From positions 1,200,001 through 1,232,000 of the forward strand of contig NC_013926.1 of NCBI RefSeq assembly GCF_000025665.1: a stretch of 32,000 nt of DNA. Reading direction: 5' to 3'. The notes beneath the pieces were generated by a model, which was not told the origin of the DNA, ran no database searches, and worked only from the letters and a program-made list of their open reading frames with translations. The DNA is from Aciduliprofundum boonei T469. GTDB taxonomy: Archaea; Thermoplasmatota; Thermoplasmata; Thermoplasmatales; Aciduliprofundaceae. Made by a program: the position numbers and the translations under genes. Of this stretch, positions 1 to 21,524 are shown one piece after another (within the stretch, counting starts at the first letter, position 1; each line of letters begins with the position of its first letter).

Positions 1-615
1 ATCAGGATTTAACGATATGGCTCTTGCGATACCTATTCTCTGTCTTTGTCCCCCACTAAATTCGTGAGGAAACCTGTGAAGGTGCTCTTTTTTCAAGCCA
101 ACTAGCTCAAGCAGCTCAATTATTCTATCTTCGACTTTATGAGGAGGCACTACCTTATGCGTCAAGAGAGGTTCGGCAAGTATTTTTTTAACAGTCATTC
201 TGGGATCTAAGGAAGATTGTGGATCTTGAAACACTATTTGCATTTTTCTTCTATATGGCATCATTTCCTTATCTTTTTTCAAGTTCAAATCATATTTTTT
301 CCTTATTTCTTCCAATTCTCTTTTAGATTTCTCATCTTTTTTGCCCACAAGTTCTCTAATTCTATCCTGCACATTTTTGGGTGTTTCAAAGAAAATCATG
401 CCATCATCTGCTTTTATAAGCCTTAAAATAGTCCTACCCAATGTTGTTTTACCGCAGCCAGATTCTCCAACTATACCTAAGGTTTCACCTTTTTTTATCT
501 CTAATGATACATTATCTACAGCTTTAACATGGGCAATGATCTTACCAAACATACCTCCCTTTACTGGAAAATATTTCTTCAATCCATAAATTTGAAGAAT
601 TGTATCATCACTCAT
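1..615 (-). CDS. oppF: Oligopeptide/dipeptide ABC transporter ATP-binding protein (OppF/DppF-like), 3' end cut by window edge
   Basis: Absent from the ORF track because it runs off the window. Minus-strand translation from ATG (613-615) reads MSDDTILQIYGLKKYFPVKGG...GETLGIVGESGCGKTTLGR (Walker A)...FPHEFSGGQRQRIGIARAISLNPD (ABC signature), in frame to base 1. The ATG overlaps the oppD stop (ATGAGTGA). Confidence 0.9.
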   Translation of the reverse strand, partial: MSDDTILQIYGLKKYFPVKGGMFGKIIAHVKAVDNVSLEIKKGETLGIVGESGCGKTTLGRTILRLIKADDGMIFFETPKNVQDRIRELVGKKDEKSKRELEEIRKKYDLNLKKDKEMMPYRRKMQIVFQDPQSSLDPRMTVKKILAEPLLTHKVVPPHKVEDRIIELLELVGLKKEHLHRFPHEFSGGQRQRIGIARAISLNPD

Positions 616-1651
616 TATCCTCACCCTCCGTTTCCTTGATCTTTTCAAAGAATTCCTTAGCAAAATGGCAAGCGACATAGTGTCCTGGCTCTATCTCTAC
701 TAACTTAGGTTTCTCCTTCTTGCATATATCTTGGGCATACTCGCACCTTGGATGAAATCTACATCCAGGAGGTGGGTATATTAGATTGGGTACAGAACCT
801 TTGATATATTTCAATTCCTCTTTCTTTTCAGCTATACTGGGTATAGCTTGCATCAGTCCCCTGGTATAGGGGTGTACAGGATTTTTAAAAATTGTATAAA
901 CATCTGCCATCTCCACAATATTTCCAGCGTACATCACCGCTACTCTATCGCATACATCTGCTACAACACTCAAATCATGCGTAATAAGAATTATTGATAT
1001 CCCCAATTTCTCTCTCATATCCAGTAGGATATTTAAAATCTGAGCTTGAACAGTCACATCTAAAGCTGTTGTAGGTTCATCTGCTATAAGCAAAGAGGGT
1101 TCGGTAGCGAGCATCATTGCAATCATAGCCCTTTGTCTCATTCCTCCACTCAACTCGTGGGGATAGCTATCTATAGCTCTCTCCGGATCAGGCATCCTAA
1201 CTAACCTCAACATATCTATAACATTTTTTCTTTCCTTCTTTTTAATATCTTTTGGAGCTTTTTTGATATTTTCAATACCATATTTATGCAACAGGATTAT
1301 CTCTAGAATTTGATCACCTATGGTGTACACAGGATTTAAAGCAGTCATAGGCTCTTGAAATATCATACTTATACCTTTACCTCTAATTTTTCTCATTTCA
1401 TCCTCTGGTAACTCTCTAAGGTTCTTCCCTTGGAAAATTATCTTTCCGCTCTCTATCTTTCCAGGCTCATCAATTAACCCAATTACAGAAAGAGCAGTTA
1501 CTGATTTTCCGCAACCAGTTTCACCTACGAGCCCGAAAATTTCCCCCTTTTTTACAAAGAAAGAAACACCATCCACAGCTTTTACAACTCCCTCATAAGT
1601 GTAAAAATAAGTATGAAGATCTTCAACCTTTAACAATATCTCATTATCCAT
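608..1651 (-). CDS. oppD: Oligopeptide/dipeptide ABC transporter ATP-binding protein (OppD/DppD-like)
   Basis: Walker A GETGCGKS, signature LSGGMRQR, Walker B LLIADEPTTALD, H-loop ITHD. C-terminal Cys-containing oligopeptide-ABC extension (PPGCRFHPRCEYAQDIC). GGAGGTGA SD at 1656-1663, 4 nt upstream of the ATG. Confidence 0.93.
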   Translation of the reverse strand: MDNEILLKVEDLHTYFYTYEGVVKAVDGVSFFVKKGEIFGLVGETGCGKSVTALSVIGLIDEPGKIESGKIIFQGKNLRELPEDEMRKIRGKGISMIFQEPMTALNPVYTIGDQILEIILLHKYGIENIKKAPKDIKKKERKNVIDMLRLVRMPDPERAIDSYPHELSGGMRQRAMIAMMLATEPSLLIADEPTTALDVTVQAQILNILLDMREKLGISIILITHDLSVVADVCDRVAVMYAGNIVEMADVYTIFKNPVHPYTRGLMQAIPSIAEKKEELKYIKGSVPNLIYPPPGCRFHPRCEYAQDICKKEKPKLVEIEPGHYVACHFAKEFFEKIKETEGEDNE

Positions 1652-1655
1652 GCTT

Positions 1656-2579
1656 TCACCTCCTTAACCTCGGATCCAAGATATCTCTGATTCCATCACC
1701 AAATAGATTGAAAGCTAGTACAGTTATGAATATTGCAAGTCCTGGAAATGTGGACCACCACCAATAGCCAGAAACCAGCCAAGAGCGCCCTTGGCTAACC
1801 ATAACGCCCCAGTCTGCAGTGTATGCAGCAGCACCTAGACCCAAGAAGGCCAGACCTGCAGCAGTTAGAATAACATTTCCAAGATCCATGGTAGCTTGGA
1901 CAAGAATTGGGGGCAATGAGTTTGGTATGACATGTTTCCATATTATTTTGAATCTACTTATGCCAATAGCCCTTGCTGCCTCTATATATTGATTCTCCTT
2001 TACAGATAGAACTTGGCCTCTCACTATTCTTGTATATCCAGGCCACCAAACGATCATTAATGCATACATAACATTCTGCAATCCCGGACCGAGAGCTGCA
2101 GTTATAGCCATTGCCAAAATTAATCCGGGAAACGCAAAGAACATATCGCAGATTCTCATCATAATTTCATCAAACCATCCTCCAATATAACCTGAGTATG
2201 CCCCCAAGAGAACACCTATAAGCATTGCCACTATTACAACTATGAATCCTATGTAAAGGGCTTCTCGAGTACCATAAACGACCATACTAAATATATCATG
2301 GCCCATATCATCGGTACCAAACAAGTGTTTCCAACTAGGTGGCTCAAGCATCGCTGATGAATCATAGGGCCAATACTGTTGTCCACCCACATATTGAGGA
2401 TGGTATGGGGCGATCCAAGGAGCAAAAACCGCAACCAAGAATATGAAGATTAGAATAATTAAACCTGTGAGCGTTAGAGGACTCTTTCTTATTAAATGCA
2501 ATGTATACTTAAACTCTTTAATCTGCGACTCGTGAGCCTTCGAAAAACTCCTTATTGCTCCAATTTCAGCCATCCTCAT
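1656..2579 (-). CDS. oppC: Oligopeptide/dipeptide ABC transporter permease (OppC/DppC-like)
   Basis: Multi-TM BPD-type permease with the EAA-like loop (YIEAARAIGISRFKIIWKHVIPN). The track start at 2582 is GTG. ATG at 2577-2579 overlaps the oppB stop by 1 nt, and ATG at 2571-2573 is also possible. Confidence 0.88.
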   Translation of the reverse strand: MRMAEIGAIRSFSKAHESQIKEFKYTLHLIRKSPLTLTGLIILIFIFLVAVFAPWIAPYHPQYVGGQQYWPYDSSAMLEPPSWKHLFGTDDMGHDIFSMVVYGTREALYIGFIVVIVAMLIGVLLGAYSGYIGGWFDEIMMRICDMFFAFPGLILAMAITAALGPGLQNVMYALMIVWWPGYTRIVRGQVLSVKENQYIEAARAIGISRFKIIWKHVIPNSLPPILVQATMDLGNVILTAAGLAFLGLGAAAYTADWGVMVSQGRSWLVSGYWWWSTFPGLAIFITVLAFNLFGDGIRDILDPRLRR

Positions 2580-3586
2580 CACTCTCCCAGTTTGATCCTT
2601 GGATCAAGATACGCATACATTATATCCACAATCAAATTCCCAATCACAAATATTATAGCCATAAGCAATGTGACTCCCATTATGGCGGGATAATCCAGTG
2701 TTGATATAGCTTGATAAGCGTATCTACCCATACCCGGCCAAGCAAAAATCGTTTCTGTAAGGACTGCGCCTCCAAGCAATCCAGCGAACGCAAGTCCTGA
2801 AACTGTTAAAGTCGGTATCAGAGCGTTTCTTAATGCATGCCTATAAATAACAACTTTATTTGATAATCCCTTTGCCTTTGCAGTCTTTATATAATCTAAT
2901 CGTAGAACTTCAAGCATACTGGATCTAGTCATCCTTGTTATTACAGCTAAGGTTGCATAAGAAAGGGTTATGGATGGAAGTATAATGTGCCGTAAATCAA
3001 CTACAAATGCATGCCAATCGAGAGATAATATACTATCCAGTATCCAAAGCCCTGTATAAATGTGTCTAGGCGGTATGCCTCTTCCGCTTGCAGGTAGCCA
3101 GCCCAGATATGTATAGAAGAGCAAAATTAAAAGTAAACCAAGCCAGAAAATAGGCATTGATACACCACTCAAAGCAAAAACTCTTGAAAGATGGTCGGGT
3201 ATTTTATTTCTTTTAACAGCAGAAACAACACCTAAATATATACCAGTTGGGATAGCTATAGCCATGGCCCATAAGGTCAATTCAAATGTTGCTGGAAAAT
3301 AATTTGCAAGACATTGAGCAACTGGTCTTTTTTCCGAATGCGAGTACCCCCAGTTTCCCGTGAATACACCTGTGATATAATAGTAGTATTGCACATAAAT
3401 AGGATCATTTAAGTGGTATTCTATTCTGATTTTCTCAACAACCGATGGTGGAGCCTTCTGTCCAGCCCATGCTCTAGCAGGATCAGCAGGTATCACAAAA
3501 GATATTGTAAAGGTTATCAGTGTAACTCCTATGATAACTGGAAAAAGCAGCAATAATCTCCTAACAATATATTGCCATAGTTTCAT
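2579..3586 (-). CDS. oppB: Oligopeptide/dipeptide ABC transporter permease (OppB/DppB-like)
   Basis: N-terminus MKLWQYIVRRLLLLFPVIIGVTLITF is typical of DppB/OppB. Permease loop DYIKTAKAKGLSNKVVIYRHALRNALIP. The track start at 3607 is TTG; the first ATG is at 3584-3586. Confidence 0.88.
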   Translation of the reverse strand: MKLWQYIVRRLLLLFPVIIGVTLITFTISFVIPADPARAWAGQKAPPSVVEKIRIEYHLNDPIYVQYYYYITGVFTGNWGYSHSEKRPVAQCLANYFPATFELTLWAMAIAIPTGIYLGVVSAVKRNKIPDHLSRVFALSGVSMPIFWLGLLLILLFYTYLGWLPASGRGIPPRHIYTGLWILDSILSLDWHAFVVDLRHIILPSITLSYATLAVITRMTRSSMLEVLRLDYIKTAKAKGLSNKVVIYRHALRNALIPTLTVSGLAFAGLLGGAVLTETIFAWPGMGRYAYQAISTLDYPAIMGVTLLMAIIFVIGNLIVDIMYAYLDPRIKLGE

Positions 3587-3644
3587 TAGAAAGGTTATAG
3601 ATAGCAAATACTTAAAAATTTAGATATATAAAAAGAAAAAAGAG
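3587..3644 (-). promoter_or_regulatory. oppA-oppB intergenic oligo-T tracts plus TATA-like box (candidate partial terminator and internal promoter)
   Basis: The minus strand directly after the oppA stop reads CTCTTTTTTCTTTTTATATATCTAAATTTTTAAG. It has T6 and T5 runs (archaeal termination signals) merging into TTTTTATATATC, about 42 nt upstream of the oppB ATG. Confidence 0.45.
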
Positions 3645-5345
3645 TTAAGATTTTTCTTCACTTACTTTGTATAGAGAATAGAACTGTAGCATCATCACTG
3701 GGTTGTAGAAGTATCCCTGTAGCCAAGTTCTGTATACTGCAACATGCTTGTTCTGCGCGAGATATATGAATGATGGATCCTGCATTGCTATCTGCTGTAT
3801 CTCCTTATAGAGTTCAATTCTCTTTGTCTGATTTACACAGTACTTTGCCTCAAGAAGTAGCTTATCCACTGTAGCATTATGCCAGCCTGTCTCGTATGTA
3901 TCTCCACCAATTGCTGCAGAGCCAAGGAACGGAAATGCATAGTCATCAGGGTCATTGTAATCGGGAGCCCAGCCAACTATAATCATGCTGTAATCTCCAC
4001 GGTCCATCTTATCCAACAGAGTGGGCCAAGCGAGTTCTTGCACATTGACTGCTATACCAATCTGTGCAAGATCACCTTTAACAATCTGTGCAATGTGGGC
4101 ACGGACATCATTACCTTGGTTGTAAATCAAAGTCAATTGAATTGTTGCAGGAAGATGATACTTCTGCCTTGCATCATTCATAAGCTGCTTTGCTTTATTT
4201 ACATCGTAAGGATACATGAACAAATTGTTGTCATGGCCAGGCATACCCTTTGGTATAGGACCCTGAAGTCTTATTGCATAACCCTTGTAAACATCCTTTA
4301 TGATGGTGTTATAATCAATTGCATAGGATATTGCCTGTCTTACTTCCTTATAGTATAGAGGATTAGTCTTGTTCTGATATTTCGGTCTGCAGTTCATTTC
4401 AATCATATCTACATCAAATGTCAATCCACCTTCATCAACCTTGATACCTGGCTTACCCTTAACATCATTGAGATGGTTCACAGGAATGTACGCCATATCA
4501 GCGTCTCCCTTAAGAAGCTCCTGCTCTCTAGTTGCTACTTCAGGTATGTTCTTTATGATTACATACTTAACATGGTGACCGCTCCAGCCACCCCAGTAGT
4601 TAGGATTCCACTCTAGTTTTATGTATGCGTTATGCTGCCAAGTAACTAACTTGTACGGACCTGTACCTACCATATTCTGGCTCATCCATGCATTGTCCTT
4701 ATTGGGCTGAACTCCACCATGCTCATTTACAACCTTTGGATCAACTATGGATGCAACTGTGAATGCGATTGCTGGCAAGAAACCACCGTATGCTTTTCTA
4801 AGATGGAATGCAACTGTATAGTCGTCAATTACTCTAACGCTGCTCTGCCCATCTGGACTATTCCACTTGCCCGTTGTGGCATTGTAGGTATACATAAACT
4901 GACTTAGAATCCAAGATACACCTGTCTGTGGAGAATTCATTATCAATACTCTGTCAAAGGAGAACTTCACTGCCTCAGCATTGAAAGGATCACCATTGGA
5001 GAACTTAACATTATGTCTTAGATGGAATGTCCAGTTCTTACCTGTAGAATCAACACTCCAACTTGTTGCTAGAAGCGGATATATATGCTCAGTATCGCTT
5101 CCATGGTAAGTTACCAATGTTTCATACACATTCTGTATAACCACACCTGATGCCGTGTCATATGCCTCTGCTGGATCCAATGTCTGTGGATCCCCAATAG
5201 TGTCCCAGACAAAAGTGTCTGGATTCTTCACTGGTGGTGTTGTGGGTTGATTGCTGGATGGTGCCGTCATCACGGCCCAGGCCGCAACGACTACAATTAT
5301 TATCACCACCACAGCTATTATTCCATACAATACTCCTTTTTGCAT
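3645..5345 (-). CDS. oppA: Extracellular solute-binding protein, peptide/nickel (family 5) ABC transporter
   Basis: Family-5 SBP-like sequence with an N-terminal membrane anchor (MQKGVLYGIIAVVVIIIVVVAAWAV) followed by an S/T/P linker (SSNQPTTPPVKNP). The track start at 5393 is TTG and lies inside the TATA box. ATG at 5343-5345 is preceded by GGGAGGT (5352-5358). Confidence 0.9.
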   Translation of the reverse strand: MQKGVLYGIIAVVVIIIVVVAAWAVMTAPSSNQPTTPPVKNPDTFVWDTIGDPQTLDPAEAYDTASGVVIQNVYETLVTYHGSDTEHIYPLLATSWSVDSTGKNWTFHLRHNVKFSNGDPFNAEAVKFSFDRVLIMNSPQTGVSWILSQFMYTYNATTGKWNSPDGQSSVRVIDDYTVAFHLRKAYGGFLPAIAFTVASIVDPKVVNEHGGVQPNKDNAWMSQNMVGTGPYKLVTWQHNAYIKLEWNPNYWGGWSGHHVKYVIIKNIPEVATREQELLKGDADMAYIPVNHLNDVKGKPGIKVDEGGLTFDVDMIEMNCRPKYQNKTNPLYYKEVRQAISYAIDYNTIIKDVYKGYAIRLQGPIPKGMPGHDNNLFMYPYDVNKAKQLMNDARQKYHLPATIQLTLIYNQGNDVRAHIAQIVKGDLAQIGIAVNVQELAWPTLLDKMDRGDYSMIIVGWAPDYNDPDDYAFPFLGSAAIGGDTYETGWHNATVDKLLLEAKYCVNQTKRIELYKEIQQIAMQDPSFIYLAQNKHVAVYRTWLQGYFYNPVMMLQFYSLYKVSEEKS

Positions 5346-5392
5346 TTCAATACCTCCCACGCTTAGTTGGGCGAGAAGATAATTGATACCCA

Positions 5393-5403
5393 AATATATA
5401 AGT
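5393..5403 (-). promoter_or_regulatory. TATA-like box for the opp operon
   Basis: The minus strand reads CTTATATATTT, centred about 53 nt upstream of the oppA ATG. This leaves a short 5' UTR that contains the SD. Confidence 0.4.
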
Positions 5404-11602: not shown

Positions 11603-12699
11603 GCCACATCACCAACCAAGAGTCCACGAATCCTATCCTTAGATATTCCTTCCATATAGCCCTTAACTATGCTCTTTAGGTTCCTTAATTCAAAATCTTT
11701 AGCCACAAGGAACATGAGCAATGGCCCAGCCGTTGTCGCAAATGTCAACGAAAGCTCGTTTACCTTCCTCAGAAGCATCCGATCTAGCTCTAACTCGATT
11801 ACGAATGGATCTTCCACATCCCTAAGAAATGCGTAGCTGGTTCCTTCCAGATGAGATAATGCCTCATCCAAAGTCCTAGCATTTGCCATGCTCTTTACTT
11901 TCCAATCACTTAACTCGTATCCGCCTTCCAAAAGCAGATTACTTATATCTTCAATTTCAGCTTTCTTCGCTCTAACAATGGTTTTTATATTGAATATATC
12001 AACAAACATAGAGAGCACAATATTAACAGGCTCTGCGGAGTTCTCTTCAAGCATTCTCTTAGAATCTATCAAATTCTTTAAAACCAATCTATCAAGAGCG
12101 ATATCCACTTTATATAAGTCAGAGGATTCGTTCCATATCTTTATTACCTCGGCAAAGGGTGTTGCATCCAAGGCACTGACAGCATCTTCCATACTTGTGG
12201 CTTCTACCATATGTTGAATTATGAGTTTTGTTAAGAATCTACCTGGATATACCTCCTCATATATCCGAGCCTTTGGCACCTTGGCATATTTTGCTCTTAA
12301 AATCCTCTTGACCATATTTGCATCATACTTGAGCATATACGCCTCTGCGAAGCTCTTACCATCATCAGGAAGCATTTCCATTACTCTTTGCATCATTGCA
12401 AGCATACTTCTTTCTAACTCTATATCATATTTTTTCAGATCTTCTACGCTATATCCTTCTTTTTCAATGTCAGATACAACTTCAGTCAAGTTTGTGTAAT
12501 TTAATAATCTCTCGATATTATCTTTTTCAGTGTATTTGGCACCTATGGCAAATATGGTGGCGTTGGGACCCATATAGGCTCCAATATTGAGCATCTTTCT
12601 AAAGAATCCCATAAGAAAAGCTATAACCACGAAGATTGCGAGGAATGATATCGTAATTGCCAAGATTATAGCGGTGCTTTCAAGCATACTCTTCACCAA
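11599..12699 (-). CDS. atpC: A-type ATP synthase subunit C (V-type d homologue)
   Basis: Operon position between E and F, size of about 366 aa, helical composition. N-terminal hydrophobic segment (residues ~9-32). Confidence 0.85.
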   Translation of the reverse strand: MVKSMLESTAIILAITISFLAIFVVIAFLMGFFRKMLNIGAYMGPNATIFAIGAKYTEKDNIERLLNYTNLTEVVSDIEKEGYSVEDLKKYDIELERSMLAMMQRVMEMLPDDGKSFAEAYMLKYDANMVKRILRAKYAKVPKARIYEEVYPGRFLTKLIIQHMVEATSMEDAVSALDATPFAEVIKIWNESSDLYKVDIALDRLVLKNLIDSKRMLEENSAEPVNIVLSMFVDIFNIKTIVRAKKAEIEDISNLLLEGGYELSDWKVKSMANARTLDEALSHLEGTSYAFLRDVEDPFVIELELDRMLLRKVNELSLTFATTAGPLLMFLVAKDFELRNLKSIVKGYMEGISKDRIRGLLVGDVA

Positions 12700-13264
12700 A
12701 TAACTTCACATAAATCCTTTTTCTCATATCACCCATATTCCTCTCTACAAAGGCCTTCACGGTGTAATCGACCTTCTTTAGAGAGTCGCTGCTTATTGCA
12801 AGAATTCCCCCATATTCTAGTTCACCTGCCATGACCTTCAAATTTAATTCCATATCATCCGCAATTCTCTTTACCATCTCTACATCCTCTTGCATGGCGA
12901 TGACTTCAAAGTTATTACCAAGAACATTCTTAGCATCTTCGAGAGATTCCCTAATATATTTCTCATAATTCACATAATCTTTAAAGCTAATCTGAACTTG
13001 GTTTATGATTCTCTCTATTACTTTTTCCCTTGCATTCATCAACATCTTCTTTCCATCTAAATGGGCCTTGGAAATATGCATCTGTTTTATGGTCTCTGCC
13101 TCTCTCTTACCAGAACTTTCCATTTTTTCTCTTTCTTTATCCCACTTGCTCTCTTCAATATTCCTGATTCTCTCTATTTCTCTATCTGCTTTATCCCAGT
13201 ACTCCTTAATCTTCCACTGCACATCCTCTTCGATTCTCTTTATTATTCTGTCTATGGCATCCAT
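12680..13264 (-). CDS. atpE: A-type ATP synthase subunit E (peripheral stalk)
   Basis: Charged N-terminal coiled coil followed by a globular C-terminal domain. 194 aa. Operon position immediately after atpK. Confidence 0.88.
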   Translation of the reverse strand: MDAIDRIIKRIEEDVQWKIKEYWDKADREIERIRNIEESKWDKEREKMESSGKREAETIKQMHISKAHLDGKKMLMNAREKVIERIINQVQISFKDYVNYEKYIRESLEDAKNVLGNNFEVIAMQEDVEMVKRIADDMELNLKVMAGELEYGGILAISSDSLKKVDYTVKAFVERNMGDMRKRIYVKLFGEEYA

Positions 13265-15085
13265 TTAGAACACCCCTATAGCCATAAGTAGAAGGATTGC
13301 TACGAGCAAGCCAAAGATAGCAAAGGTCTCACTCATCACGGATAACATCATACTCTTTCCAAAGCTCTCAGAGCGTCTAGTGAAGGCGCCTATACCCATC
13401 GCTGCCGTTATACCTTGGCCAATACCGCTCAATCCCGCAAATCCAATTGCCAAACCAGCACCTATTGCGCCGATTCCAACGAATAAGGCCATTGATTTTG
13501 GAATCTGCAATCCACCACCAAGAAGGCCAACTGCATAGAGAATTATTATGGATACAATCAAAGCATAGATACTCTGTGTCTCTGGAAGCACTGAGAATAT
13601 GATGGACTTTGAGAACGCTGATGGCTTTTCCACGGAAGCAGCAGCACCACTTCCCGCTGCAATACCCTGCCCTATGGCAGTCATACCACTAACACCTATG
13701 GCCAAGCCAGCGCCTATTGCAGCCAAGCCTACACCTATAGGAAAAGCAAGTGGTTTTGAACCAAATAAACCTGCACCATTAACGATGAATATAGCTACAA
13801 GCAATCCGTAAATAACTTGAGTTTCTGGCATTATTGCAAATACCATTATTTTACCAAAGGAAGCTTTCTCACGCATACTTGCATAGACGCTACTTCCCGC
13901 AGCTATGCCGAGTCCTATACCACTCAAACCAGCAAATCCAACAGCTAGGCCTGCACCTATTGCAGCCAAGCCAACAAATAGGGCTGCATTTCCACTCATA
14001 AATCCAGAGCCGCTTAGCAAACCTGTGGCGCTTAGGACCACTATGGCTATAATCAAAGCAGTTATACTTGGAGTTTCAGCTATAACGGAAAATATCATGC
14101 CCTTGGTGAATGCCTTTGGATTCTCAGCTGTTGCCGCACAGGAGCTAGATGCAGCAATACCTTGGCCTATGGCTGTCAAGCCGCTCACACCCATGGCCAA
14201 GCCAGCACCTATTGCAGCCAAGCCCACACCGAGAGAATAGTGTTTTACCCCACCCCCGAACATTCCAGAGCCATATAGAATTAAAATGGCGATAAGCAAG
14301 CCATAGATTGCCTGAGTTTCAGGAAGAATGGAGAACACAACAGCTTTTCCGTAAGAAATTCTATCATGCTGTGTAGTGCCAATGCCAGTGCCAGCAACGA
14401 TTCCCTGTCCTATAGCACTCAAACCTGCAAGACCCACGGAGATGCCAGCACCTATTGCAGCCAGGCCTATGGATATTGGCACATTCTCAATGTGCCCAGA
14501 GAAAGCACCTATGCCCATCATAATTATAATTGCTATCAAAAATCCATAAATTGCCTGGGTCTGAGGAAATGCCTGGAATATAAGTATCCTTCCAAACTTG
14601 CTCTTAGGATCGCTTCCAATGGCAGCAGCACCGCTTGCTCCGGTGATACCCACACCAACACCAGAACCTATGGCCGATAGACCAACAGCAAGGCCTGCAC
14701 CTATGAGGGCAAGATAACCACCCATTGGGCCTTCTCCCACAACGAATTTGTAAACATAAGTTGTATTGGCATTTTCTATGACTTTTAACTGATAAGTTCC
14801 ACTTTGCTCGAGTGTGACCGTGAATCTTGAACCTGTACCTGTTAAATTCTTACCTCCAAAACTCAAGATCCATGTTACACTTGAACTCCATTTGAATGTA
14901 TAATTCTTCCCTATTTCAAATGCTCCAGATGAATTTACCTCACTAAGCGGTTTCTCAACAGTCTTTCCATTAACCTCATAAATTACAGTTGGCTCAACAC
15001 CTTGAGCTGCCGCATGTGGCATAGAAACCACAAATAGCAGCAAGAGCGCACTTAAGAGCACCATTAGCGGCACTAATTTTTTCAT
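13265..15085 (-). CDS. atpK: A-type ATP synthase proteolipid (subunit K/c): signal peptide + extracytoplasmic domain + six fused hairpins
   Basis: Six copies of the c-subunit pattern GLAAIGAGLA-G-(A/S)G(L/M)(S/T)(A/G)IGQGI...loop...(P/S/A)(E/Q)T(Q/P/F)xI(Y/F/T). GGAGGTGA SD lies 8 nt upstream. The ATG overlaps the atpI TAA by 1 nt. Confidence 0.93.
   Translation of the reverse strand: MKKLVPLMVLLSALLLLFVVSMPHAAAQGVEPTVIYEVNGKTVEKPLSEVNSSGAFEIGKNYTFKWSSSVTWILSFGGKNLTGTGSRFTVTLEQSGTYQLKVIENANTTYVYKFVVGEGPMGGYLALIGAGLAVGLSAIGSGVGVGITGASGAAAIGSDPKSKFGRILIFQAFPQTQAIYGFLIAIIIMMGIGAFSGHIENVPISIGLAAIGAGISVGLAGLSAIGQGIVAGTGIGTTQHDRISYGKAVVFSILPETQAIYGLLIAILILYGSGMFGGGVKHYSLGVGLAAIGAGLAMGVSGLTAIGQGIAASSSCAATAENPKAFTKGMIFSVIAETPSITALIIAIVVLSATGLLSGSGFMSGNAALFVGLAAIGAGLAVGFAGLSGIGLGIAAGSSVYASMREKASFGKIMVFAIMPETQVIYGLLVAIFIVNGAGLFGSKPLAFPIGVGLAAIGAGLAIGVSGMTAIGQGIAAGSGAAASVEKPSAFSKSIIFSVLPETQSIYALIVSIIILYAVGLLGGGLQIPKSMALFVGIGAIGAGLAIGFAGLSGIGQGITAAMGIGAFTRRSESFGKSMMLSVMSETFAIFGLLVAILLLMAIGVF
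13268..14731 (-). repeat. Intragenic tandem repeat: six c-subunit hairpin modules (243/252-nt period)
   Basis: The plus-strand motif cc(a/t)gc(a/g)cctat(t)gc... (encoding AIGAG) recurs, with its acctat core at 13460, 13712, 13955, 14207, 14450 and 14699. Spacings are 252, 243, 252, 243 and 249 nt. Odd and even modules form two sequence classes. Confidence 0.9.
14732..15004 (-). other. Predicted extracytoplasmic beta-rich domain of AtpK (residues ~28-118)
   Basis: QGVEPTVIYEVNGKTVEKPLSEVNSSGAFEIGKNYTFKWSSSVTWILSFGGKNLTGTGSRFTVTLEQSGTYQLKVIENANTTYVYKFVV. Alternating hydrophobic/polar beta pattern, with four N-x-S/T sequons (NSS, NYT, NLT, NTT). Confidence 0.6.
15005..15085 (-). other. Predicted Sec signal peptide of AtpK
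   Basis: MKKLVPLMVLLSALLLLFVVSMPHAAA|QG has a basic n-region, a hydrophobic h-region and an A-A-A cleavage-type c-region. Confidence 0.65.
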
Positions 15086-17223
15086 TATTCATTCACCTCC
15101 AACCTGCTATGTTTCCTAACTTCTCTAAACGGCACAAACTTTACACCATCTCCCTCATAGAACTTTGAGAAGAACTCTACATACTGCAAACGCAGAGAGT
15201 GCACAAATGAGCCCAATGCTTGAAGCATTGAGTTCCCTATATGCCCTATAATCAAGAAGAGAAGTATGAATAACCATATGGCTGCTGTTATGCTTACCAC
15301 TCCCACTATACCAAATACGAGGAGGAGCAGTATTATGCCCTTCTTTATGGGATCCTTCTTTCTCATCCAAAGAAGAGCAAGAGCAACACCTGCAAGGAGC
15401 ACTGGAAGACAGCAAACCATGCCTGTGGCTCCTGCAGTCATAGTCCTTATTATCCCGGCAAGGATGTTTATCGTAAGAGCCAAACCGGATGTAGCTAAAT
15501 CTAGCGCAAGTAAACGGGAATAAGAGAGCCAATCCCCAATCATACCTGTTATATCAAAGAAAAATAGTCCGTTTATAGAGGCTTTTTTATCCACAAGTTT
15601 ACCCATTACTCCTGGGAGGAATAAGAATAATCCAATTACTGTGAATATCCATGCTATTGTAACTGCCGTTCCAGACATCTGCCACCATCCGAAATAATAG
15701 CCTATGAGCGCACCGCCTGCAGGGTATAGTATGAGCCAAGACACTTCGCCCTGCAAAAATTCAGAGTAATTTTTATCTCTAAGGTGATGGAACGCGCCAA
15801 GAGCCATACCCAAGCTCAGCTGAAATACACCGATCATAAGAGAGATCTTTAGCAGAGTTATAGGGTCCTGCATTGGATCCAAGATAGGAGTGTAGTGAAT
15901 TAAAGGTGTAAGTGGATTCGATTCATTTAAAGGTCCAAATATACCTCCTTGAATTAAACCAAAAACTACAGCCGATAACCCGGAGACAAATAATATAGAT
16001 CCTAGTGTTCTATTTGTCCAGTTGTATTTGCCCAGTGGCTTCCATAGGATATATCCCAGTACAGCCATTATCATACCATAACCAGCATCTCCCAGAGTAA
16101 GGCCAAAGTAGATGATGAACAAAGGCGCTATTATCACAGTCGGATCTATATGCCCGTACTTTGGCGTGGAGTACATATCCACAAATGCCTGAAAAGGCCT
16201 AAACATCCTTGGATTGTTATATTTTACGGGGACATCTCCTCCCTTCGCCTCTTTCCATCTTATCAATGCAAGGCCTCGCGCTGCTTTTTCGATAACTTTC
16301 CTTGCACTTTCAAAATCCACCTTTGGTATGTAGCCCCTGATTACTGTAGTATAAAATGTCTTGCCAAATTTTGAATGAATTTCCTCCTTTATTTTCTCAT
16401 TATAAAGATCATCCTTTAAAACGGAAAGATGAGGATAAACTTCCTTTCTCAAAATCCTCAATTCTGTCAGAATTTTTTCCTTCTCTTTGGACAGCTTTTT
16501 AGATTTTAATTCCATATCTTTCAATACCTTATCGGGTTTACCCTTCCACTCTTTTAACTCAAATTCTGAAAATCCTGCAAATCTCAAAGCAGATTCGAGT
16601 TCCTTCTTATCCTTCATATGCGAAGCCACTACAATAATGTAATTGACTTCCTTTTTCTTTCCCTCAGTTACACTCCACAAAGCTATTTTACCTTCGGATT
16701 CTAATTTTTTCAGATGGTCTAAATTTTTTGCAGTTCCCGCAGCGATATACGCATAAGGTCCTTCTCCCAAGTACGAAACATCAAAAGGTAATGCCTTTAA
16801 CTTCTCCACCTGCCTCCTTTGAATTTTTATTCTCTCAATCTCAGTATTTATTTCTTCCCATTTTGAGTATAAATCTAAAATTCTTGGTTCTAAACTCTCC
16901 AAGGTTCTCTCTGCATCTTTCATTATCTCCTCTCTTTCTCTATGCTTTGCAGGATACTTCTCTGGAGGCTCAGTTTTGATTGATGCAAGCATTCCATTTT
17001 TCTTTATCTTAGAGATATTGAGAATCTCCATTAGTTTACCAATTCTAAATTCATAATCCACTATTGTGGTAGCTATATCAGATGGATTTGCATTTTCTAA
17101 ATTTTCAATGTTATGGGTGCTTATATGCATAAAGCCCCTTCTTTGCATCGCATCTAAAACATCGTATTTAACAGAATCATGAAGAAGCACTTCTACTTCC
17201 ACCATCTTGGATGGAAAAAGCAT
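15085..17223 (-). CDS. atpI: A-type ATP synthase subunit I (stator a-subunit)
   Basis: Cytoplasmic N-terminal half with coiled coils plus a C-terminal multi-TM half containing the essential-Arg motif (DWLSYSRLLALDLATSGLA). ATG 17221-17223 is preceded by GGGTGA. The track start at 17232 is a GTG overlapping the atpH stop. Confidence 0.93.
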   Translation of the reverse strand: MLFPSKMVEVEVLLHDSVKYDVLDAMQRRGFMHISTHNIENLENANPSDIATTIVDYEFRIGKLMEILNISKIKKNGMLASIKTEPPEKYPAKHREREEIMKDAERTLESLEPRILDLYSKWEEINTEIERIKIQRRQVEKLKALPFDVSYLGEGPYAYIAAGTAKNLDHLKKLESEGKIALWSVTEGKKKEVNYIIVVASHMKDKKELESALRFAGFSEFELKEWKGKPDKVLKDMELKSKKLSKEKEKILTELRILRKEVYPHLSVLKDDLYNEKIKEEIHSKFGKTFYTTVIRGYIPKVDFESARKVIEKAARGLALIRWKEAKGGDVPVKYNNPRMFRPFQAFVDMYSTPKYGHIDPTVIIAPLFIIYFGLTLGDAGYGMIMAVLGYILWKPLGKYNWTNRTLGSILFVSGLSAVVFGLIQGGIFGPLNESNPLTPLIHYTPILDPMQDPITLLKISLMIGVFQLSLGMALGAFHHLRDKNYSEFLQGEVSWLILYPAGGALIGYYFGWWQMSGTAVTIAWIFTVIGLFLFLPGVMGKLVDKKASINGLFFFDITGMIGDWLSYSRLLALDLATSGLALTINILAGIIRTMTAGATGMVCCLPVLLAGVALALLWMRKKDPIKKGIILLLLVFGIVGVVSITAAIWLFILLFLIIGHIGNSMLQALGSFVHSLRLQYVEFFSKFYEGDGVKFVPFREVRKHSRLEVNE

Positions 17224-17228
17224 GGTTT

Positions 17229-17549
17229 TCACCCAAATATCTCTTTAAGTACCTCTACAGCTACTTCGTTAATCCTATTTTCATCGATGCTCTCAATTTC
17301 TTTCACTCTTTCCCTGTATTCCTCTAATATTTTCTCTGCCTCTCTTTTTCCCTCTTCATCAGCTTCTTCCTTCCATCTTTCTATGGTTTCCAACACTTCT
17401 TCTCTCTCTTTTTCAATAGTGGCTCTAATTTCTTTTTTTGCATTTTCAATCTTCTCCTTACTTTCCTTCTCTGCTTTCTCTATGCGTGATAGTGCACTGT
17501 TTTCAGTCTCACGAATCCGTTTAAGGTCCCTCTCGATCATAAAACTCAT
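17229..17549 (-). CDS. atpH: A-type ATP synthase subunit H (peripheral stalk)
   Basis: 106-aa charged helical protein, MSFMIERDLKRIRETENSALSRIEKAEKESKEKIENAKKEI...INEVAVEVLKEIFG. First gene of the atp operon. The 221-aa track ORF extends upstream across the intergenic region and into pxpA on the other strand, so the extension is spurious. Confidence 0.8.
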   Translation of the reverse strand: MSFMIERDLKRIRETENSALSRIEKAEKESKEKIENAKKEIRATIEKEREEVLETIERWKEEADEEGKREAEKILEEYRERVKEIESIDENRINEVAVEVLKEIFG

Positions 17550-17624
17550 CGGGAGATGACATTTACATTTATAATAATTTTGGATGGCCAAAAATTTAAG
17601 TTCAAAGTAGAGTATTAAGATTCG
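17550..17624. promoter_or_regulatory. Divergent promoter region, atp operon (minus strand) / pxpABC (plus strand)
   Basis: Minus-strand TTATTATAAA (plus-strand coordinates ~17568-17577) lies about 19-28 nt upstream of the atpH ATG. Plus-strand AAAATTTAAG (~17591-17600) lies about 25-34 nt upstream of the pxpA ATG. Neither gene has an SD, which fits leaderless first genes. Confidence 0.45.
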
Positions 17625-18392
17625 ATGAAAGTTGATTTGAATGCGGACCTTGGAGAGAGTTTCAGCATCTACAAAATTGGAAATGATACGGAGATTATGA
17701 ATTATATCACCTCTGCAAATATTGCCTGTGGATGGCATGGTGGAGACCCCATTGTTATGAGAGAGACAGTTAAGTGGGCAAAGGAGAAGAATGTGGCAAT
17801 TGGTGCTCATCCAAGCTACCCTGATAGATTGGGGTTTGGAAGAAGGTACATGAAAATAAGTTCTGATGAGGCTAAAAACTATGTTATATATCAAATAGGT
17901 GCATTGTATGGATTTGTTAAAGCAGAATCACTGAAAATACAGCATGTCAAACCACATGGAGCTTTGTACAACGCGATGGTTAGAGATGAAGATCTTGCAA
18001 GGGGAATTATTGAGGGAATTTTAGAATTTGATAAAGAACTAATATTTGTAGGCCCTTCTAACTCGAAAATTATGGATATAGCAGAGGATATGGGCTTAAG
18101 AGTTGCACATGAAGTATTTGCTGACAGAGCTTACAATTCAGATGGAACCTTAGTGCCGCGAGGCAGGCCTAGGGCTGTCATAGAGGATAAAGAGGAAATT
18201 GCAAGAAGAGTCATCTCAATCGTCAAGGATGGGGGAGTAAAAGCAATTGATGGGAAATGGGTTGAGTTAAGGGCAGATACAATTTGCATCCACGGTGATA
18301 ATCCAAATGCGGTTGAAATAGTCAAGTATTTAAGAAGGGTATTGGATAAAGAGTGCATAGATGTGGTCTCTATGGGAGAGTTTATAAAATGA
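17625..18392 (+). CDS. pxpA: 5-oxoprolinase subunit A (LamB/YcsF family)
   Basis: [13 protein letters not shown]...[12 protein letters not shown]...[10 protein letters not shown] are LamB/YcsF hallmark motifs. Confidence 0.9.
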
Positions 18393-19054
18393 TAAGAGCA
18401 GCAGGAGATTCTGCCCTGATCATAAATCTTGGAAATGAGATAGATGAGGAGATAAATAAAAGAGTGCACGCTATCGCCAGAAGAATAGAAGAGGAAAGAA
18501 TAGTAGGAATAAAAGAGGTTGTGCCCACTTACACATCTATCTATGTTTATTATGATCCTCTAATTGTTAGCTACGATAAATTGAAATTCCTTCTAAAAAA
18601 TTATCTTATAGAAGAACCAAGGACGATGAATGGAAAAATTGTAGAGATCCCTGTAATATATGGAGGAAAATATGGACCAGATATTGAATTTGTGGCAAGT
18701 TATAATGGATTGAGTGTGGATGATGTTATAGAGCTCCACACCAAGCCGCTTTACAGAGTATATATGCTTGGCTTCCTTCCTGGATTTGCATACCTTGGTG
18801 GAATGGATGAGAGAATCGCAACACCTCGCTTAGAAAATCCGAGGAAAAGAGTGCCTGCTGGAAGTGTGGGTATTGCAGGAAAGCAAACTGGATGGTACGC
18901 TATTGAGAGCCCCGGTGGATGGAGAATAATTGGAAGAACTCCTCTAAGAACATTCAACCCTTCAAAAGAACCTCCCAGTATAGTTTTGCCTGGGGATTAT
19001 GTAAAATTTAAGGCAATTGATGAGGATAATGCCGAGGAGTACGATGGAAAATGA
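18389..19054 (+). CDS. pxpB: 5-oxoprolinase subunit B (KipI / allophanate hydrolase subunit 1 family)
   Basis: Cyclophilin-like KipI domain ([13 protein letters not shown]..., [40 protein letters not shown]). ATGA overlap with pxpA at 18389. The track start at 18353 is too long. Confidence 0.88.
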
Positions 19055-20040
19055 TTAAAATAATTGAAGCTGCAGGCCTATCCATACAAGATTTGGGAAG
19101 GGAGGGATACCAAAAATATGGAGTGCCTGTGGGGGGGGTTATGGATAGATACTCTGCAGTTATAACCAACTACCTTGTTGGAAATGAGAAAAATGCACCA
19201 CTCTTGGAATTCTTCATGGGTAGCCTAAAAATAAAATTCCTTCGAGATTCAATTTTTGCTGTGGGTGCTAATTCAGAGGTTAAATTAAATGGGGAGAAAA
19301 TAGAGGCATGGGAAGCACATATGGGAAAAAAGGGAGATGTGCTAGAAATATCACAACCGAAAAGTGGAGTATACGGATATCTTTCTTTTCAAGGCGGTTT
19401 GAAGTGTCAGAAAGTGTTTGGAAGTTGCTCCACATATCCGCAGGCAGGTTGGGGCAGGTATCTAAAAAAGGGAGAGGTTATAGAACTCAAATATCTAACA
19501 AACAGATTTCCTAAGAGAAGAGAGTTGCCTGAAGAATTGATTCCAAAATATGATAGAAATCCAAAAATAAGGTTGATTTTAGGGCCCCAACTAGAGCATT
19601 TCAGCAAAGAGGGAATAAGAACTTTTCTAAGCAATGAGTACATTGTCACGGAGGAATCCAGCAGGATGGGTTATAGATTAGATGGACCAAGAATAGAGCA
19701 TTCAGAAATGGGGGCGGATATAATTAGTGATGCGATTCCACTGGGCTCAATTCAAGTGCCGGAAAGTGGCAAGCCGATAATTATGCTTGCAGATCATCAA
19801 ACTACAGGAGGTTATGCAAAAATAGGAGTTGTAATATCTGCCGACATCTCAAAGGTAGCTCAAACTCCAATTGGGGGGAAAATTAGATTCCAAGAAGTTA
19901 GCGTGGAAAAGGCTCAAATGATATGGAAGAGAACCTGCAATACTTTACAAAATATAAAAAGGTATTTGGAGGGGAAAATAAGGGCTTTGAGAGTAAAGGT
20001 GAACGATGAGAGTTTGTTAGCATTTGTGGAAGAAATTTAG
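19051..20040 (+). CDS. pxpC: 5-oxoprolinase subunit C (KipA / allophanate hydrolase subunit 2 family)
   Basis: KipA-type sequence (SIQDLGREGYQKYGVPVGGVMD..., SSRMGYRLDG, GSIQVPESGKPIIMLADHQTTGGYAKIG). ATGA overlap with pxpB. Confidence 0.88.
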   Translation: MIKIIEAAGLSIQDLGREGYQKYGVPVGGVMDRYSAVITNYLVGNEKNAPLLEFFMGSLKIKFLRDSIFAVGANSEVKLNGEKIEAWEAHMGKKGDVLEISQPKSGVYGYLSFQGGLKCQKVFGSCSTYPQAGWGRYLKKGEVIELKYLTNRFPKRRELPEELIPKYDRNPKIRLILGPQLEHFSKEGIRTFLSNEYIVTEESSRMGYRLDGPRIEHSEMGADIISDAIPLGSIQVPESGKPIIMLADHQTTGGYAKIGVVISADISKVAQTPIGGKIRFQEVSVEKAQMIWKRTCNTLQNIKRYLEGKIRALRVKVNDESLLAFVEEI

Positions 20041-20888: not shown

Positions 20889-21524
20889 TCAAGAGAACTT
20901 TTCAACTGCAACATTTATGGCGATTTTTATAGCCTCTATTTCCATATCCAAACACATACTTGGGGTGCTCTTCCCAAGCAAGAAATATCTATTCACCACT
21001 TGGTCCGGAGTGTATGGGATGTGTATAAACCCTGCGCTCTTGGGATAACCATGATCGGATGCATAGTGCAATACTTTGAAAAGTGCGTAATTACATAGAT
21101 AGGTGCCTGCACTGTACGATAGAACTGCCGGAATGCCATTCTTCTTCAATTCTTCAACTATTTCCCTTGTTGGCAATGTGGCAAGATAGGCTAAGGGTGC
21201 ATCCTCAACGATTGGCATATCCATGGGTTGCTCTCCATCATTATCAGGTATCCTTGCATCCACCAGATTCAAGCCCACTCGCTCTACCGTTATACTTGTA
21301 TATGTTGGTGCCAGTCCCAAGCTTATAACTACATCGGGCTTCAATTCATATAGAACTTTGTCTATCTCGGGACCTGCACGCTTTACGGATACAGGTAAAA
21401 TTTTTCCATACACCTTTGCATTTTTTATTCTCTTTCCTTCAAGGGCGGCAACAATATCCATAGTGGGATTTTTCTTATGCCCTCCAAATGGCTCGTATCC
21501 CGTGAGAAGAACTTTTATTGGCAT
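20889..21524 (-). CDS. pcp: Pyrrolidone-carboxylate peptidase (pyroglutamyl peptidase I)
   Basis: [18 protein letters not shown]-terminus, catalytic Cys context SAGTYLCNY, His context GFIHIP. 211 aa. Confidence 0.93.

What the first reader, a model, noticed from the sequence alone, without database searches (positions are those of the whole stretch)
14732..15085. Signal peptide plus ~90-aa beta-rich, glycosylation-sequon-rich domain fused to the N-terminus of the rotor c-subunit
AtpK does not begin with a hairpin. It begins with a classical Sec signal (MKKLVPLMVLLSALLLLFVVSMPHAAA|QG), followed by about 90 residues with an alternating beta-strand pattern (TVIYEVNG..., YTFKWSSSVTWILSF, RFTVTLEQSGTYQLKVIE, TYVYKFVV). 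That stretch carries four N-x-S/T sequons, whereas the 488-aa hairpin region has none. c-subunit N-termini face the non-cytoplasmic side, so the topology is self-consistent. An Ig/PKD-like glycosylated domain would then sit on the outer face of the rotating ring. The extension looks genuinely translated: its ATG overlaps the atpI stop by 1 nt and has a GGAGGTGA SD 8 nt upstream, and the frame stays open for 360 nt before the first hairpin. I know of no described A/V/F-type c subunit with an extracytoplasmic globular domain. It could plug or cap the ring, contact the S-layer or pseudo-periplasm, act as an assembly or targeting pro-domain that is later cleaved, or regulate rotation.
Basis: partly seen in the sequence, partly recalled or inferred. 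Interest (0 to 1): 0.78.

Follow-up and report, generated by a model that had tools for sequence, protein, structure and literature searches.

The report
PKD domain fused to ATPase rotor
The membrane rotor subunit of this archaeon's ATP synthase starts with an export signal and a small, probably sugar-coated, immunoglobulin-like (PKD) domain. That domain should sit on the outer face of the spinning ring, an arrangement conserved across many Thermoplasmatota and not found in any paper I could search.

Summary
The window comes from Aciduliprofundum boonei T469. atpK (13265-15085, minus strand; Aboo_1266) encodes 606 aa in four parts:
- residues 1-27: a Sec-type signal with an AxA|Q site;
- residues about 31-117: a beta-sandwich predicted with pLDDT above 90;
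- residues 118-120: a 3-residue linker;
- residues 121-606: six c-subunit hairpins.

The domain is a diverged PKD domain. On its own it scores below Pfam's cut-off. The same position in about 50 related six-hairpin c-subunit clusters from Thermoplasmatota holds clear PKD domains. The family profile matches collagenase PKD structures at E=8.5e-16.

The extension is a real coding sequence:
- It is kept in all four full-length DHVE2 relatives.
- pN/pS is 0.26-0.35 among the three closer relatives.
- The Shine-Dalgarno motif is conserved.
- Met121 is not conserved.

N-glycosylation sequons are 3.5-fold enriched in the extension across the family. They are nearly absent from the hairpins. Charge distribution puts the N-terminus of helix 1 outside the cell.

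I infer a retained, glycosylated Ig-like domain that co-rotates on the outer mouth of the ring. The nearest analogue is the mammalian V-ATPase subunit Ac45, which is not a homologue. Cleavage, glycosylation, retention and function are untested. I rate this a new variant of a known kind, visible in database annotation but apparently undescribed in the literature.

The parts
15093..15100 (-). Shine-Dalgarno-like GGAGGTGA, 7 nt upstream of the atpK ATG, lying inside the 3' end of atpI
   Evidence: Read directly. TGGAGGTG is present in the 40 nt upstream of the start in all four DHVE2 relatives, and three of them have the full GGAGGTGA.
13265..15085 (-). atpK (Aboo_1266): 606-aa precursor of the A-type ATP synthase rotor subunit c/K, including the stop codon
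   Evidence: ORF. Pfam ATP-synt_C at E=1.8e-87. Exact match to ADD09074.1 / WP_008083817.1 of A. boonei T469.
15005..15085 (-). Residues 1-27: Sec-type signal peptide (n-region MKK, 20-residue uncharged h-region, c-region P-H-A-A-A | Q)
   Evidence: Heuristic scan of 39 homologues: 37 share the architecture. The sequence is poorly conserved (22-59% identity) while the architecture is kept. Predicted helix 4-20, with pLDDT below 50 for residues 21-29.
14735..15004 (-). Residues 28-117: diverged PKD-type Ig-like beta-sandwich domain
   Evidence: AF2 pLDDT 90-98 with seven strands. Foldseek hits to PKD domains 4tn9, 1b4r, 2y72 and 1l0q. Pfam PKD at E=0.0067, below cut-off. 18 of 22 family members hit PKD at E<=0.01. 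Family profile versus ColH/ColG PKD at E=8.5e-16 to 1e-10. pN/pS 0.26-0.35 among the closer relatives.
14933..14935 (-). Asn51 of sequon N-S-S, conserved as NSS, NST or NKS in the close relatives
14903..14905 (-). Asn61 of sequon N-Y-T
14846..14848 (-). Asn80 of sequon N-L-T, conserved as NLT, NIT or NMT in the close relatives
14765..14767 (-). Asn107 of sequon N-T-T, with NET, NYT or NYS nearby in relatives
14726..14734 (-). Residues 118-120 (E-G-P): 3-residue linker between the last beta-strand and helix 1
   Evidence: Full-length AF2 model: strand 108-117, helix 1 from residue 121.
14723..14725 (-).
   Evidence: The aligned codon is CTT, CTG, TTG, CTT or ACA in five relatives. The internal start is therefore not conserved.
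13268..14725 (-). Residues 121-606: six tandem c-subunit hairpins (12 transmembrane helices)
   Evidence: Six hairpin-HMM domains. AF2 pTM 0.79. Glu at residues 256, 337, 421, 502 and 586 is invariant.
14561..14563 (-). Gln175, which replaces the ion-binding Glu in hairpin 1
   Evidence: Invariant Q175 in 39 homologues.
15085..17232 (-). atpI (stator subunit a/I), immediately upstream, with a 1-nt overlap
   Evidence: Pfam V_ATPase_I. Same gene order in L006.
12680..13264 (-). atpE, immediately downstream
   Evidence: Pfam vATP-synt_E.

Best explanation
atpK of Aciduliprofundum boonei encodes a pre-protein. A Sec-type signal peptide (residues 1-27) directs the N-terminus across the membrane and is probably removed after Ala27. 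This leaves a roughly 90-residue PKD-type Ig-like beta-sandwich, probably N-glycosylated at up to four Asn residues. Only three residues join it to helix 1 of the first of six c-subunit hairpins.

In known c-rings the first helix of each hairpin lines the central pore. Each rotor subunit would therefore hold one glycosylated Ig-like domain at the outer mouth of the ring, where it turns with the rotor. Two copies, possibly three, would build the ring, giving two or three such domains per enzyme.

The most likely role is structural. The domain may cap or shield the outer opening of the ring, or help to set and stabilise the assembly of the few large subunits. This resembles the glycosylated luminal domain of Ac45/ATP6AP1 on the mammalian V-ATPase ring.

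Shown here:
- the reading frame and its conservation;
- purifying selection on the extension;
- the fold and its PKD ancestry;
- signal-peptide architecture;
- sequon enrichment;
- positive-inside topology;
- the operon context.

Inferred only:
- signal cleavage;
- actual glycosylation;
- retention of the domain in the mature enzyme;
- its position over the pore;
- the number of copies per ring;
- its function.
For: Full-length conservation holds in four DHVE2 genomes at 68-86% identity, with no frame disruption. pN/pS for the domain is 0.26-0.35 among the three closer relatives, against 0.08-0.12 for the hairpins.

TGGAGGTG is conserved before the start. Met121 is not conserved.

About 50 of the 120 best c-subunit clusters share signal + 100-160 aa + six hairpins. 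Many carry precomputed Pfam PKD hits. One of them sits in an identical atpI-K-E-C-F-A-B operon.

The fold is predicted with confidence. PKD structures are among the best Foldseek matches. 18 of 22 members hit Pfam PKD. The family profile matches ColH/ColG PKD at E=8.5e-16 to 1e-10 and an archaeal S-layer PKD at 1e-6. hhalign of the DHVE2 clade against the PKD clade gives P=4e-5.

The signal architecture occurs in 37 of 39 members. Sequons number 168 observed against 47 expected in the extensions, or 3.5 versus 0.13 per 100 aa in extension versus hairpins. The window domain has 4.4 per 100 aa against at most 1.1 in other window proteins.

There are 14 K/R in the six hairpin turns and 2 in the five inter-hairpin loops, which places the start of helix 1 outside. 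The linker is 3 residues. Single-chain homologues with 12-13 hairpins support a ring of about 12 hairpins.

The Ac45 luminal beta-domain is glycosylated and rotates rigidly with the c-ring (PMC7414150).
Against: - No experimental evidence was available for cleavage, glycosylation or retention.
- SignalP and DeepTMHMM could not be run. The 20-residue h-region is long enough to be a membrane anchor.
- The window's own domain scores below Pfam's PKD cut-off (16.8 versus 23.5 bits). The Foldseek E-values are weak (4e-3 to 2e-2). hhalign probability is only 70%.
- Synonymous sites are saturated, so dN/dS is only a rough guide.
- With the most divergent relative, L004, the domain is only 23-27% identical and pN/pS is 0.57-0.73.
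- Model coordinates could not be inspected. Placement over the pore rests on textbook c-ring geometry and not on a result here.
- In the full-length model the domain's pLDDT falls to 70-85.
- A crude tree does not group all extension-bearing subunits together.
Confidence: 0.68

Rival explanations
1. The N-terminal hydrophobic segment is not cleaved. It stays as a thirteenth transmembrane helix (N-in, C-out), and the PKD domain becomes an extracellular loop domain between this helix and helix 1. The extra helix could sit inside the ring, like TM1 of the eukaryotic subunit c''.
For: The uncharged h-region is 20 residues long (15-26 across the family), which is enough to span a membrane. AF2 models residues 4-20 as a helix. 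[quoted passage not shown]
Against: A helix-breaking Pro lies near the end of the h-region, followed by a small-x-small motif, in most of the 37 sequences with the signal architecture. About half of these show a clear A-x-A|Q or A-x-A|E site. The segment evolves almost freely (22-59% identity, pN/pS 0.45-1.0), as signal peptides do and as packed ring helices would not. pLDDT is below 50 for residues 21-29.
Confidence: 0.15
2. The signal and PKD domain form a transient targeting or assembly pro-region. It helps the 12-helix protein insert with its N-terminus outside and is then clipped off, so the working rotor carries no domain.
For: Furin cleaves the linker between the two luminal domains of Ac45 and removes the luminal domain of PRR (PMC7414150), so processing of rotor-associated domains has precedent. 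The domain evolves three times faster than the hairpins.
Against: The linker to helix 1 is only 3 residues, which leaves little room for a protease site. The 3.5-fold sequon enrichment across the family and the conserved core residues W72, G96 and Y98 point to a stable, surface-exposed, long-lived domain. Six-hairpin c subunits of Methanomicrobiales insert without any such region.
Confidence: 0.1
3. The 5' 360 nt are not translated and the real start is Met121. The apparent signal and domain are then an annotation artefact or a decaying remnant.
For: Met121 exists in A. boonei and GGAG lies 8 nt upstream of it. Six-hairpin c subunits without an extension exist in other archaea.
Against: The aligned codon is CTT, CTG, TTG, CTT or ACA in relatives. 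The frame is open and under purifying selection in all relatives. The GGAG is explained by the Gly-Glu-Gly codons, whose E-G is conserved in the four DHVE2 relatives. A confident fold is predicted. The upstream start has a conserved SD and is coupled to the atpI stop. Homologous PKD extensions occur in about 50 clusters.
Confidence: 0.02
4. The domain docks the enzyme to the S-layer or another fixed outer structure, acting as an anchor or brake.
For: PKD domains are common in archaeal S-layer and surface proteins, for example 1l0q. A. boonei has an S-layer (my own knowledge, not tested here).
Against: The domain is fused through 3 residues to the rotating part. A fixed contact would block rotation unless it were regulatory. 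The fusion also occurs in many Thermoplasmatota lineages whose envelopes are unknown.
Confidence: 0.05

Closest known systems
Multi-hairpin A-type ATP synthase c/K subunits (one to 13 hairpins per chain, some ion sites lost)
   Same: Tandem ATP-synt_C hairpins in one polypeptide. One hairpin lacks the carboxylate (Gln175). The gene lies between atpI and atpE. PMC9171764 states that archaeal c subunits have 1, 2, 3 or even 13 hairpins with reduced numbers of ion sites.
   Different: This one has six hairpins, a number not listed in that paper. It also has a cleavable-type signal peptide and an extracellular globular domain, which none of the described or solved c subunits has (solved chains are 73-213 aa).
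Ac45/ATP6AP1 (and PRR/ATP6AP2, yeast Voa1) of eukaryotic V-ATPases
   Same: A glycosylated, beta-rich domain on the non-cytoplasmic side of the c-ring. It turns with the ring as a rigid body (PMC7414150).
   Different: Ac45 is a separate type-I membrane protein whose helix sits inside the ring. It is not fused to c. It is not detectably related in sequence, because the family profile found no ATP6AP1 chain in the PDB. Its fold has 14 strands and is not a PKD domain.
PKD domains of archaeal and bacterial surface proteins (collagenase ColG/ColH; Methanosarcina S-layer protein 1l0q)
   Same: Same beta-sandwich fold and the remains of the W...G.Y signature. Extracellular location, and often glycosylated in archaea.
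   Different: Those domains occur as tandem spacers or binding modules of secreted or S-layer proteins. Here a single copy is fused to a rotary-motor membrane subunit. In the DHVE2 clade the WDFGDG and His signature has decayed.
Eukaryotic V-ATPase subunit c'' (Vma16/ATP6V0B)
   Same: A c-type subunit with an extra N-terminal hydrophobic helix that precedes the hairpins.
   Different: TM1 of c'' is retained, sits inside the ring and has no attached globular domain. Here the first hydrophobic segment looks like a cleavable signal.

Membership tests
A/V-type ATPase proteolipid subunit c/K (Pfam PF00137) | Hairpin domains matching ATP-synt_C above the curated cut-off | tested here: met
   288 bits against a cut-off of 24, E=1.8e-87, 7 stretches. 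Six hairpin-HMM domains.
A/V-type ATPase proteolipid subunit c/K (Pfam PF00137) | Ion-binding carboxylate in the second helix of the hairpin | tested here: met
   Glu at residues 256, 337, 421, 502 and 586 is invariant in 39 homologues. Hairpin 1 has Gln175 instead.
A/V-type ATPase proteolipid subunit c/K (Pfam PF00137) | Encoded in the atp operon between subunits I (a) and E | tested here: met
   atpI is upstream with a 1-nt overlap. atpE, C, A and B lie downstream. The order is the same in L006.
A/V-type ATPase proteolipid subunit c/K (Pfam PF00137) | Assembles into the rotor ring of the enzyme | not testable with these tools
   Needs purification or cryo-EM.
PKD domain (Pfam PF00801 / PF18911) | Score at or above Pfam's gathering threshold | tested here: not met
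   The window domain scores 16.8 bits against a cut-off of 23.5, E=0.0067. At the same position, 18 of 22 family members match PKD at E<=0.01, with a best E of 1.5e-14. Many homologues carry precomputed PKD hits.
PKD domain (Pfam PF00801 / PF18911) | PKD-type beta-sandwich fold | tested here: met
   AF2 pLDDT above 90. Foldseek matches include ColG PKD 4tn9 and 2y72, polycystin-1 PKD 1b4r and S-layer PKD 1l0q, all with weak E-values of 7e-3 to 2e-2.
PKD domain (Pfam PF00801 / PF18911) | Signature WDFGDG ... H.Y ... G.Y.V | tested here: inconclusive
   W72, G96 and Y98 are kept. The DFGDG and His positions are lost in the DHVE2 clade and present in the other clades.
PKD domain (Pfam PF00801 / PF18911) | Profile-level homology to bona fide PKD domains | tested here: met
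   Family profile A1 against PDB sequences: ColH 8.5e-16, ColG 4e-10, 1l0q 1e-6. DHVE2-only profile against the PKD-clade profile: P=4e-5, probability 70%.
Sec-type (class 1) cleavable signal peptide | Positive n-region, hydrophobic h-region, c-region with small residues at -3 and -1 | tested here: met
   MKK, then 20 uncharged residues, then P-H-A-A-A|Q. The same plan occurs in 37 of 39 homologues. This was a heuristic scan and not SignalP.
Sec-type (class 1) cleavable signal peptide | Actual cleavage by signal peptidase | not testable with these tools
   Needs N-terminal sequencing or mass spectrometry.
Archaeal N-glycoprotein | Sequons enriched on the extracytoplasmic part | tested here: met
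   168 observed against 47 expected across 39 extensions. Density is 3.5 versus 0.13 per 100 aa in extension versus hairpins. The window shuffle test gives P=0.019.
Archaeal N-glycoprotein | Glycan attached to Asn | not testable with these tools
   Needs glycoproteomics.
Ac45/ATP6AP1-type rotor accessory subunit | Sequence homology to ATP6AP1 or Voa1 | tested here: not met
   No ATP6AP1 chain appears among the PDB sequence hits of the family profile at E<=1. The resemblance is functional and topological only.

The most novel reading that the evidence does not exclude
In many Thermoplasmatota the c-ring is built from two (or three) six-hairpin subunits. Their covalently fused, N-glycosylated PKD domains meet over the outer mouth of the ring. 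Together they form a protein cap that seals or shields the central pore and fixes the ring's stoichiometry. This would be a prokaryotic, fused and independently evolved counterpart of the Ac45/PRR plug of animal V-ATPases.
Probability: 0.3. Interest if true: 0.8.

Novelty: new variant of a known kind. Interest (0 to 1): 0.62.

Why it matters
Rotor rings of F-, A- and V-type ATPases are generally treated as bare bundles of hairpins, with the pore filled by lipid or, in eukaryotes, by accessory proteins. Here the rotor itself carries a folded, probably glycosylated, extracellular domain, and the feature is conserved across a large archaeal phylum. That would show that decorating the outer face of the ring arose independently in prokaryotes.

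The case is open to experiment. A. boonei is cultivable, so one purification with mass spectrometry or cryo-EM could address several points at once:
- what closes the c-ring pore;
- how ring stoichiometry, and hence the ion-to-ATP ratio, is set when subunits hold six hairpins with five sites;
- how a 12-helix proteolipid is inserted.

It also matters for annotation. Some of these proteins are currently named only 'PKD domain-containing protein'.

Tried and rejected
- The word-indexed protein search with the N-domain alone found nothing. The exhaustive phmmer search was needed. It returned only c-subunit fragments or orthologues (P0001, P0006, P0012) and short weak matches to giant Ig/PKD-repeat proteins. 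No free-standing orthologue of the domain was seen.
- dN/dS proper could not be used because synonymous sites are saturated (pS 0.7-0.9). I report pN/pS instead.
- Model coordinates are not exposed. I therefore could not measure where the domain sits relative to the hairpin arc. I dropped the idea of modelling a tandem dimer for the same reason.
- A neighbour-joining tree of the hairpin regions did not make extension-bearing subunits monophyletic. The sequences are short and repetitive, so I draw no conclusion on single versus multiple acquisition.
- I considered and rejected Tat, lipoprotein and type-IV-pilin-like signals. There is no conserved twin-arginine motif, no conserved Cys at +1, and no [KR]-G-[FAS] site ahead of the h-region.
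- The weak Pfam hits Bflower_3 and Por_Secre_tail were dismissed as noise.
- Seven literature searches found no description of the fusion. The 'PKD domain' mentions in PMC6461988 refer to peptidases.
Full report
**What is there.**
The minus-strand ORF 13265..15085 encodes 606 aa. It is identical to Aboo_1266 / ADD09074.1 / WP_008083817.1 of Aciduliprofundum boonei T469, annotated 'ATP synthase subunit C' at the same length. It lies in a normal A-type ATP synthase operon on the minus strand. atpI (15085..17232) is upstream, and atpE, atpC, atpA and atpB are downstream.

Pfam finds ATP-synt_C at E=1.8e-87, starting at residue 128. A hairpin HMM built from the protein finds six hairpins, the first with its envelope starting at residue 118. 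Residues 1-120 have no Pfam hit above threshold. The best is PKD, at E=0.0067 and 16.8 bits against a cut-off of 23.5.

- The atpK ATG shares one base with the atpI stop.
- GGAGGTGA lies at 15100-15093.
- There are four sequons (N51, N61, N80, N107) in the extension and none in the 488-aa hairpin part.

**Is the extension translated?**
A scan of species-representative genomes found four full-length relatives. All are DHVE2 or Thermoplasmata MAGs at 68-86% identity. All keep an ATG, a signal-like N-terminus, a domain of about 90 aa and six hairpins in one open frame.

Synonymous sites are saturated, so I use pN/pS. Among the three closer relatives the domain gives 0.26-0.35. The hairpins give 0.08-0.12. 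With the most divergent relative, L004, the domain value rises to 0.57-0.73. The domain is therefore constrained, but less tightly than the hairpins.

TGGAGGTG precedes the start in all five genomes. The codon aligned with Met121 is CTT, CTG, TTG or CTT in the four relatives and ACA in a more distant one. Initiation at residue 121 is not a conserved option. The GGAG before Met121 comes from the Gly-Glu-Gly codons, whose E-G is conserved in the four DHVE2 relatives.

**What is the domain?**
I ran AlphaFold2 on a 22-sequence alignment of N-terminal regions. It gives pLDDT 90-98 for residues 31-118, with seven strands and one short helix.

Foldseek against the PDB places PKD domains among the best matches, all with weak E-values of 7e-3 to 2e-2:
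- collagenase ColG (4tn9, 2y72);
- polycystin-1 (1b4r);
- a Methanosarcina S-layer protein (1l0q).

The decisive evidence is comparative. A search with a divergent orthologue (P0012) returned 253 c subunits. Of the 120 listed, about 50 clusters have a signal, an extension of 100-160 aa and six hairpins. Many carry precomputed Pfam PKD hits (PF00801, PF18911, PF22352). NCBI names some of them 'PKD domain-containing protein'. One lies in an identical atpI-K-E-C-F-A-B operon in a complete Thermoplasmata genome (L006).

In the alignment W72, G96 and Y98 are kept throughout. The WDFGDG...H.Y signature is present in the other clades and decayed in the DHVE2 clade. Further support:
- 18 of 22 members hit Pfam PKD.
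- The family profile hits ColH/ColG PKD chains at E=8.5e-16 to 1e-10.
- A DHVE2-only profile aligns to the PKD-clade profile at P=4e-5 with 70% probability.

I conclude that the domain is a diverged PKD domain. By Pfam's own threshold the window sequence is not a member, but it is homologous to domains that are.

The exhaustive search with the domain alone found no free-standing orthologue.

**Export, topology and glycosylation.**
Thirty-seven of 39 family members share one plan. A positively charged n-region is followed by 15-26 uncharged residues that mostly end near a Pro, and then by a small-x-small site. That site is A-x-A followed by Gln or Glu in about half of them. The other two look like truncated gene calls. 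The sequence of this segment is barely conserved while its architecture is, which is typical of signal peptides. SignalP was not available, so cleavage is inferred.

The six hairpin turns hold 14 Lys/Arg and the five inter-hairpin loops hold 2. The family means are 12.1 and 1.8. By the positive-inside rule the turns are cytoplasmic and the start of helix 1 is outside. This matches a domain exported by a signal peptide.

Sequons are 3.5-fold enriched over composition-preserving shuffles in the extensions of all 39 proteins, 168 observed against 47 expected. They are 27 times denser there than in the hairpins. In the window, 4 of the domain's 6 Asn lie in sequons, a density of 4.4 per 100 aa. 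The 22 other window proteins have at most 1.1 per 100 aa. Three sequon positions recur in the close relatives. This fits a surface-exposed glycoprotein domain that persists. It fits a throw-away pro-peptide less well.

**How it probably works.**
In the full-length model (pTM 0.79) the last strand ends at residue 117 and helix 1 starts at residue 121. The domain is therefore held by three residues to the outer end of helix 1.

From established c-ring structures, the first helix of each hairpin lines the pore. This point is my own knowledge and I could not inspect model coordinates. The domain should then sit at the outer mouth of the ring, near the rotation axis, and turn with it.

Homologues with 12 or 13 hairpins in one chain suggest a ring of about 12 hairpins. 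That would mean two AtpK copies and two PKD domains. Three copies cannot be excluded.

The likeliest role is structural: capping or shielding the pore, or stabilising a ring made of few large subunits. The nearest precedent is Ac45/ATP6AP1. Its glycosylated luminal beta-domain rotates rigidly with the mammalian c-ring (PMC7414150). Ac45 is a separate, unrelated protein.

**Rivals.**
- Uncleaved signal anchor acting as an extra helix, as in c'' (about 0.15).
- Pro-domain removed after insertion (about 0.10).
- Static contact with the S-layer (about 0.05).
- Start at Met121 (about 0.02). Comparative data already contradict this one.

**Novelty.**
The searchable literature holds no description of this fusion. 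A 2022 paper states that archaeal c subunits have 1, 2, 3 or 13 hairpins and mentions no extra domain (PMC9171764). Solved c subunits are 73-213 aa with no such domain.

The architecture is, however, visible in public annotation. It is a domain fusion onto a well-known subunit, so I rate it a new variant of a known kind. The finding is real and of moderate to high interest. Its function is open.

Noticed in passing
window 14561-14563 (-), residue 175 of AtpK: Hairpin 1 has Gln where hairpins 2-6 have the ion-binding Glu. Q175 is invariant in 39 homologues. The six-hairpin c subunits without the N-domain also read PQTQ here. This gives five ion sites per six hairpins, which would lower the ion-to-ATP ratio.
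   Followed up: partly
window about 14051-14089 (-), residues 333-345 of AtpK (hairpin 3): In A. boonei and its three closest relatives the second helix of hairpin 3 reads IAETPSITA in place of the usual LPETQAIYG. The preceding loop contains a Cys (SSSCAATAENP). The more distant relative L004 keeps LPETQSIYA. This may be an altered ion site.
   Followed up: no
proteins P0022, P0024, P0059, P0039: Single-chain 12-hairpin c subunits from Nanoarchaeota-like MAGs carry N-terminal tails of 54-86 aa. The tails have no signal peptide and are packed with N-x-T/S sequons. This looks like a second, different way of decorating the outer face of a rotor.
   Followed up: no
proteins P0072, P0077 and P0084: P0072 has a 305-aa extension with an acidic, internally repeated insert before the PKD C-terminal part. 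P0077 and P0084 combine the N-domain with only four hairpins (438 aa).
   Followed up: no
window 17229-17894 (-): The mechanical ORF of 221 aa from TTG is probably over-extended. The C-terminal 105 aa or so (MSFMIERDLKRIRE..., starting near 17546) look like AtpH. The longer form overlaps the divergent gene at 17625, and there is no Pfam hit.
   Followed up: no
window 17625-20040 (+) and 20889-21524 (-): Beside the atp operon lie genes matching LamB_YcsF, CT_C_D and CT_A_B, which look like 5-oxoprolinase subunits, and a pyroglutamyl peptidase. This is probably coincidental. The predicted mature N-terminus of AtpK, and of about half of its homologues, is Gln, a residue prone to cyclise to pyroglutamate.
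   Followed up: no
window 608-5393 (-): An oligopeptide ABC transporter operon: SBP_bac_5, two permeases and one ATPase. I used its extracellular binding protein as a sequon-density comparator (0.86 per 100 aa).
   Followed up: partly
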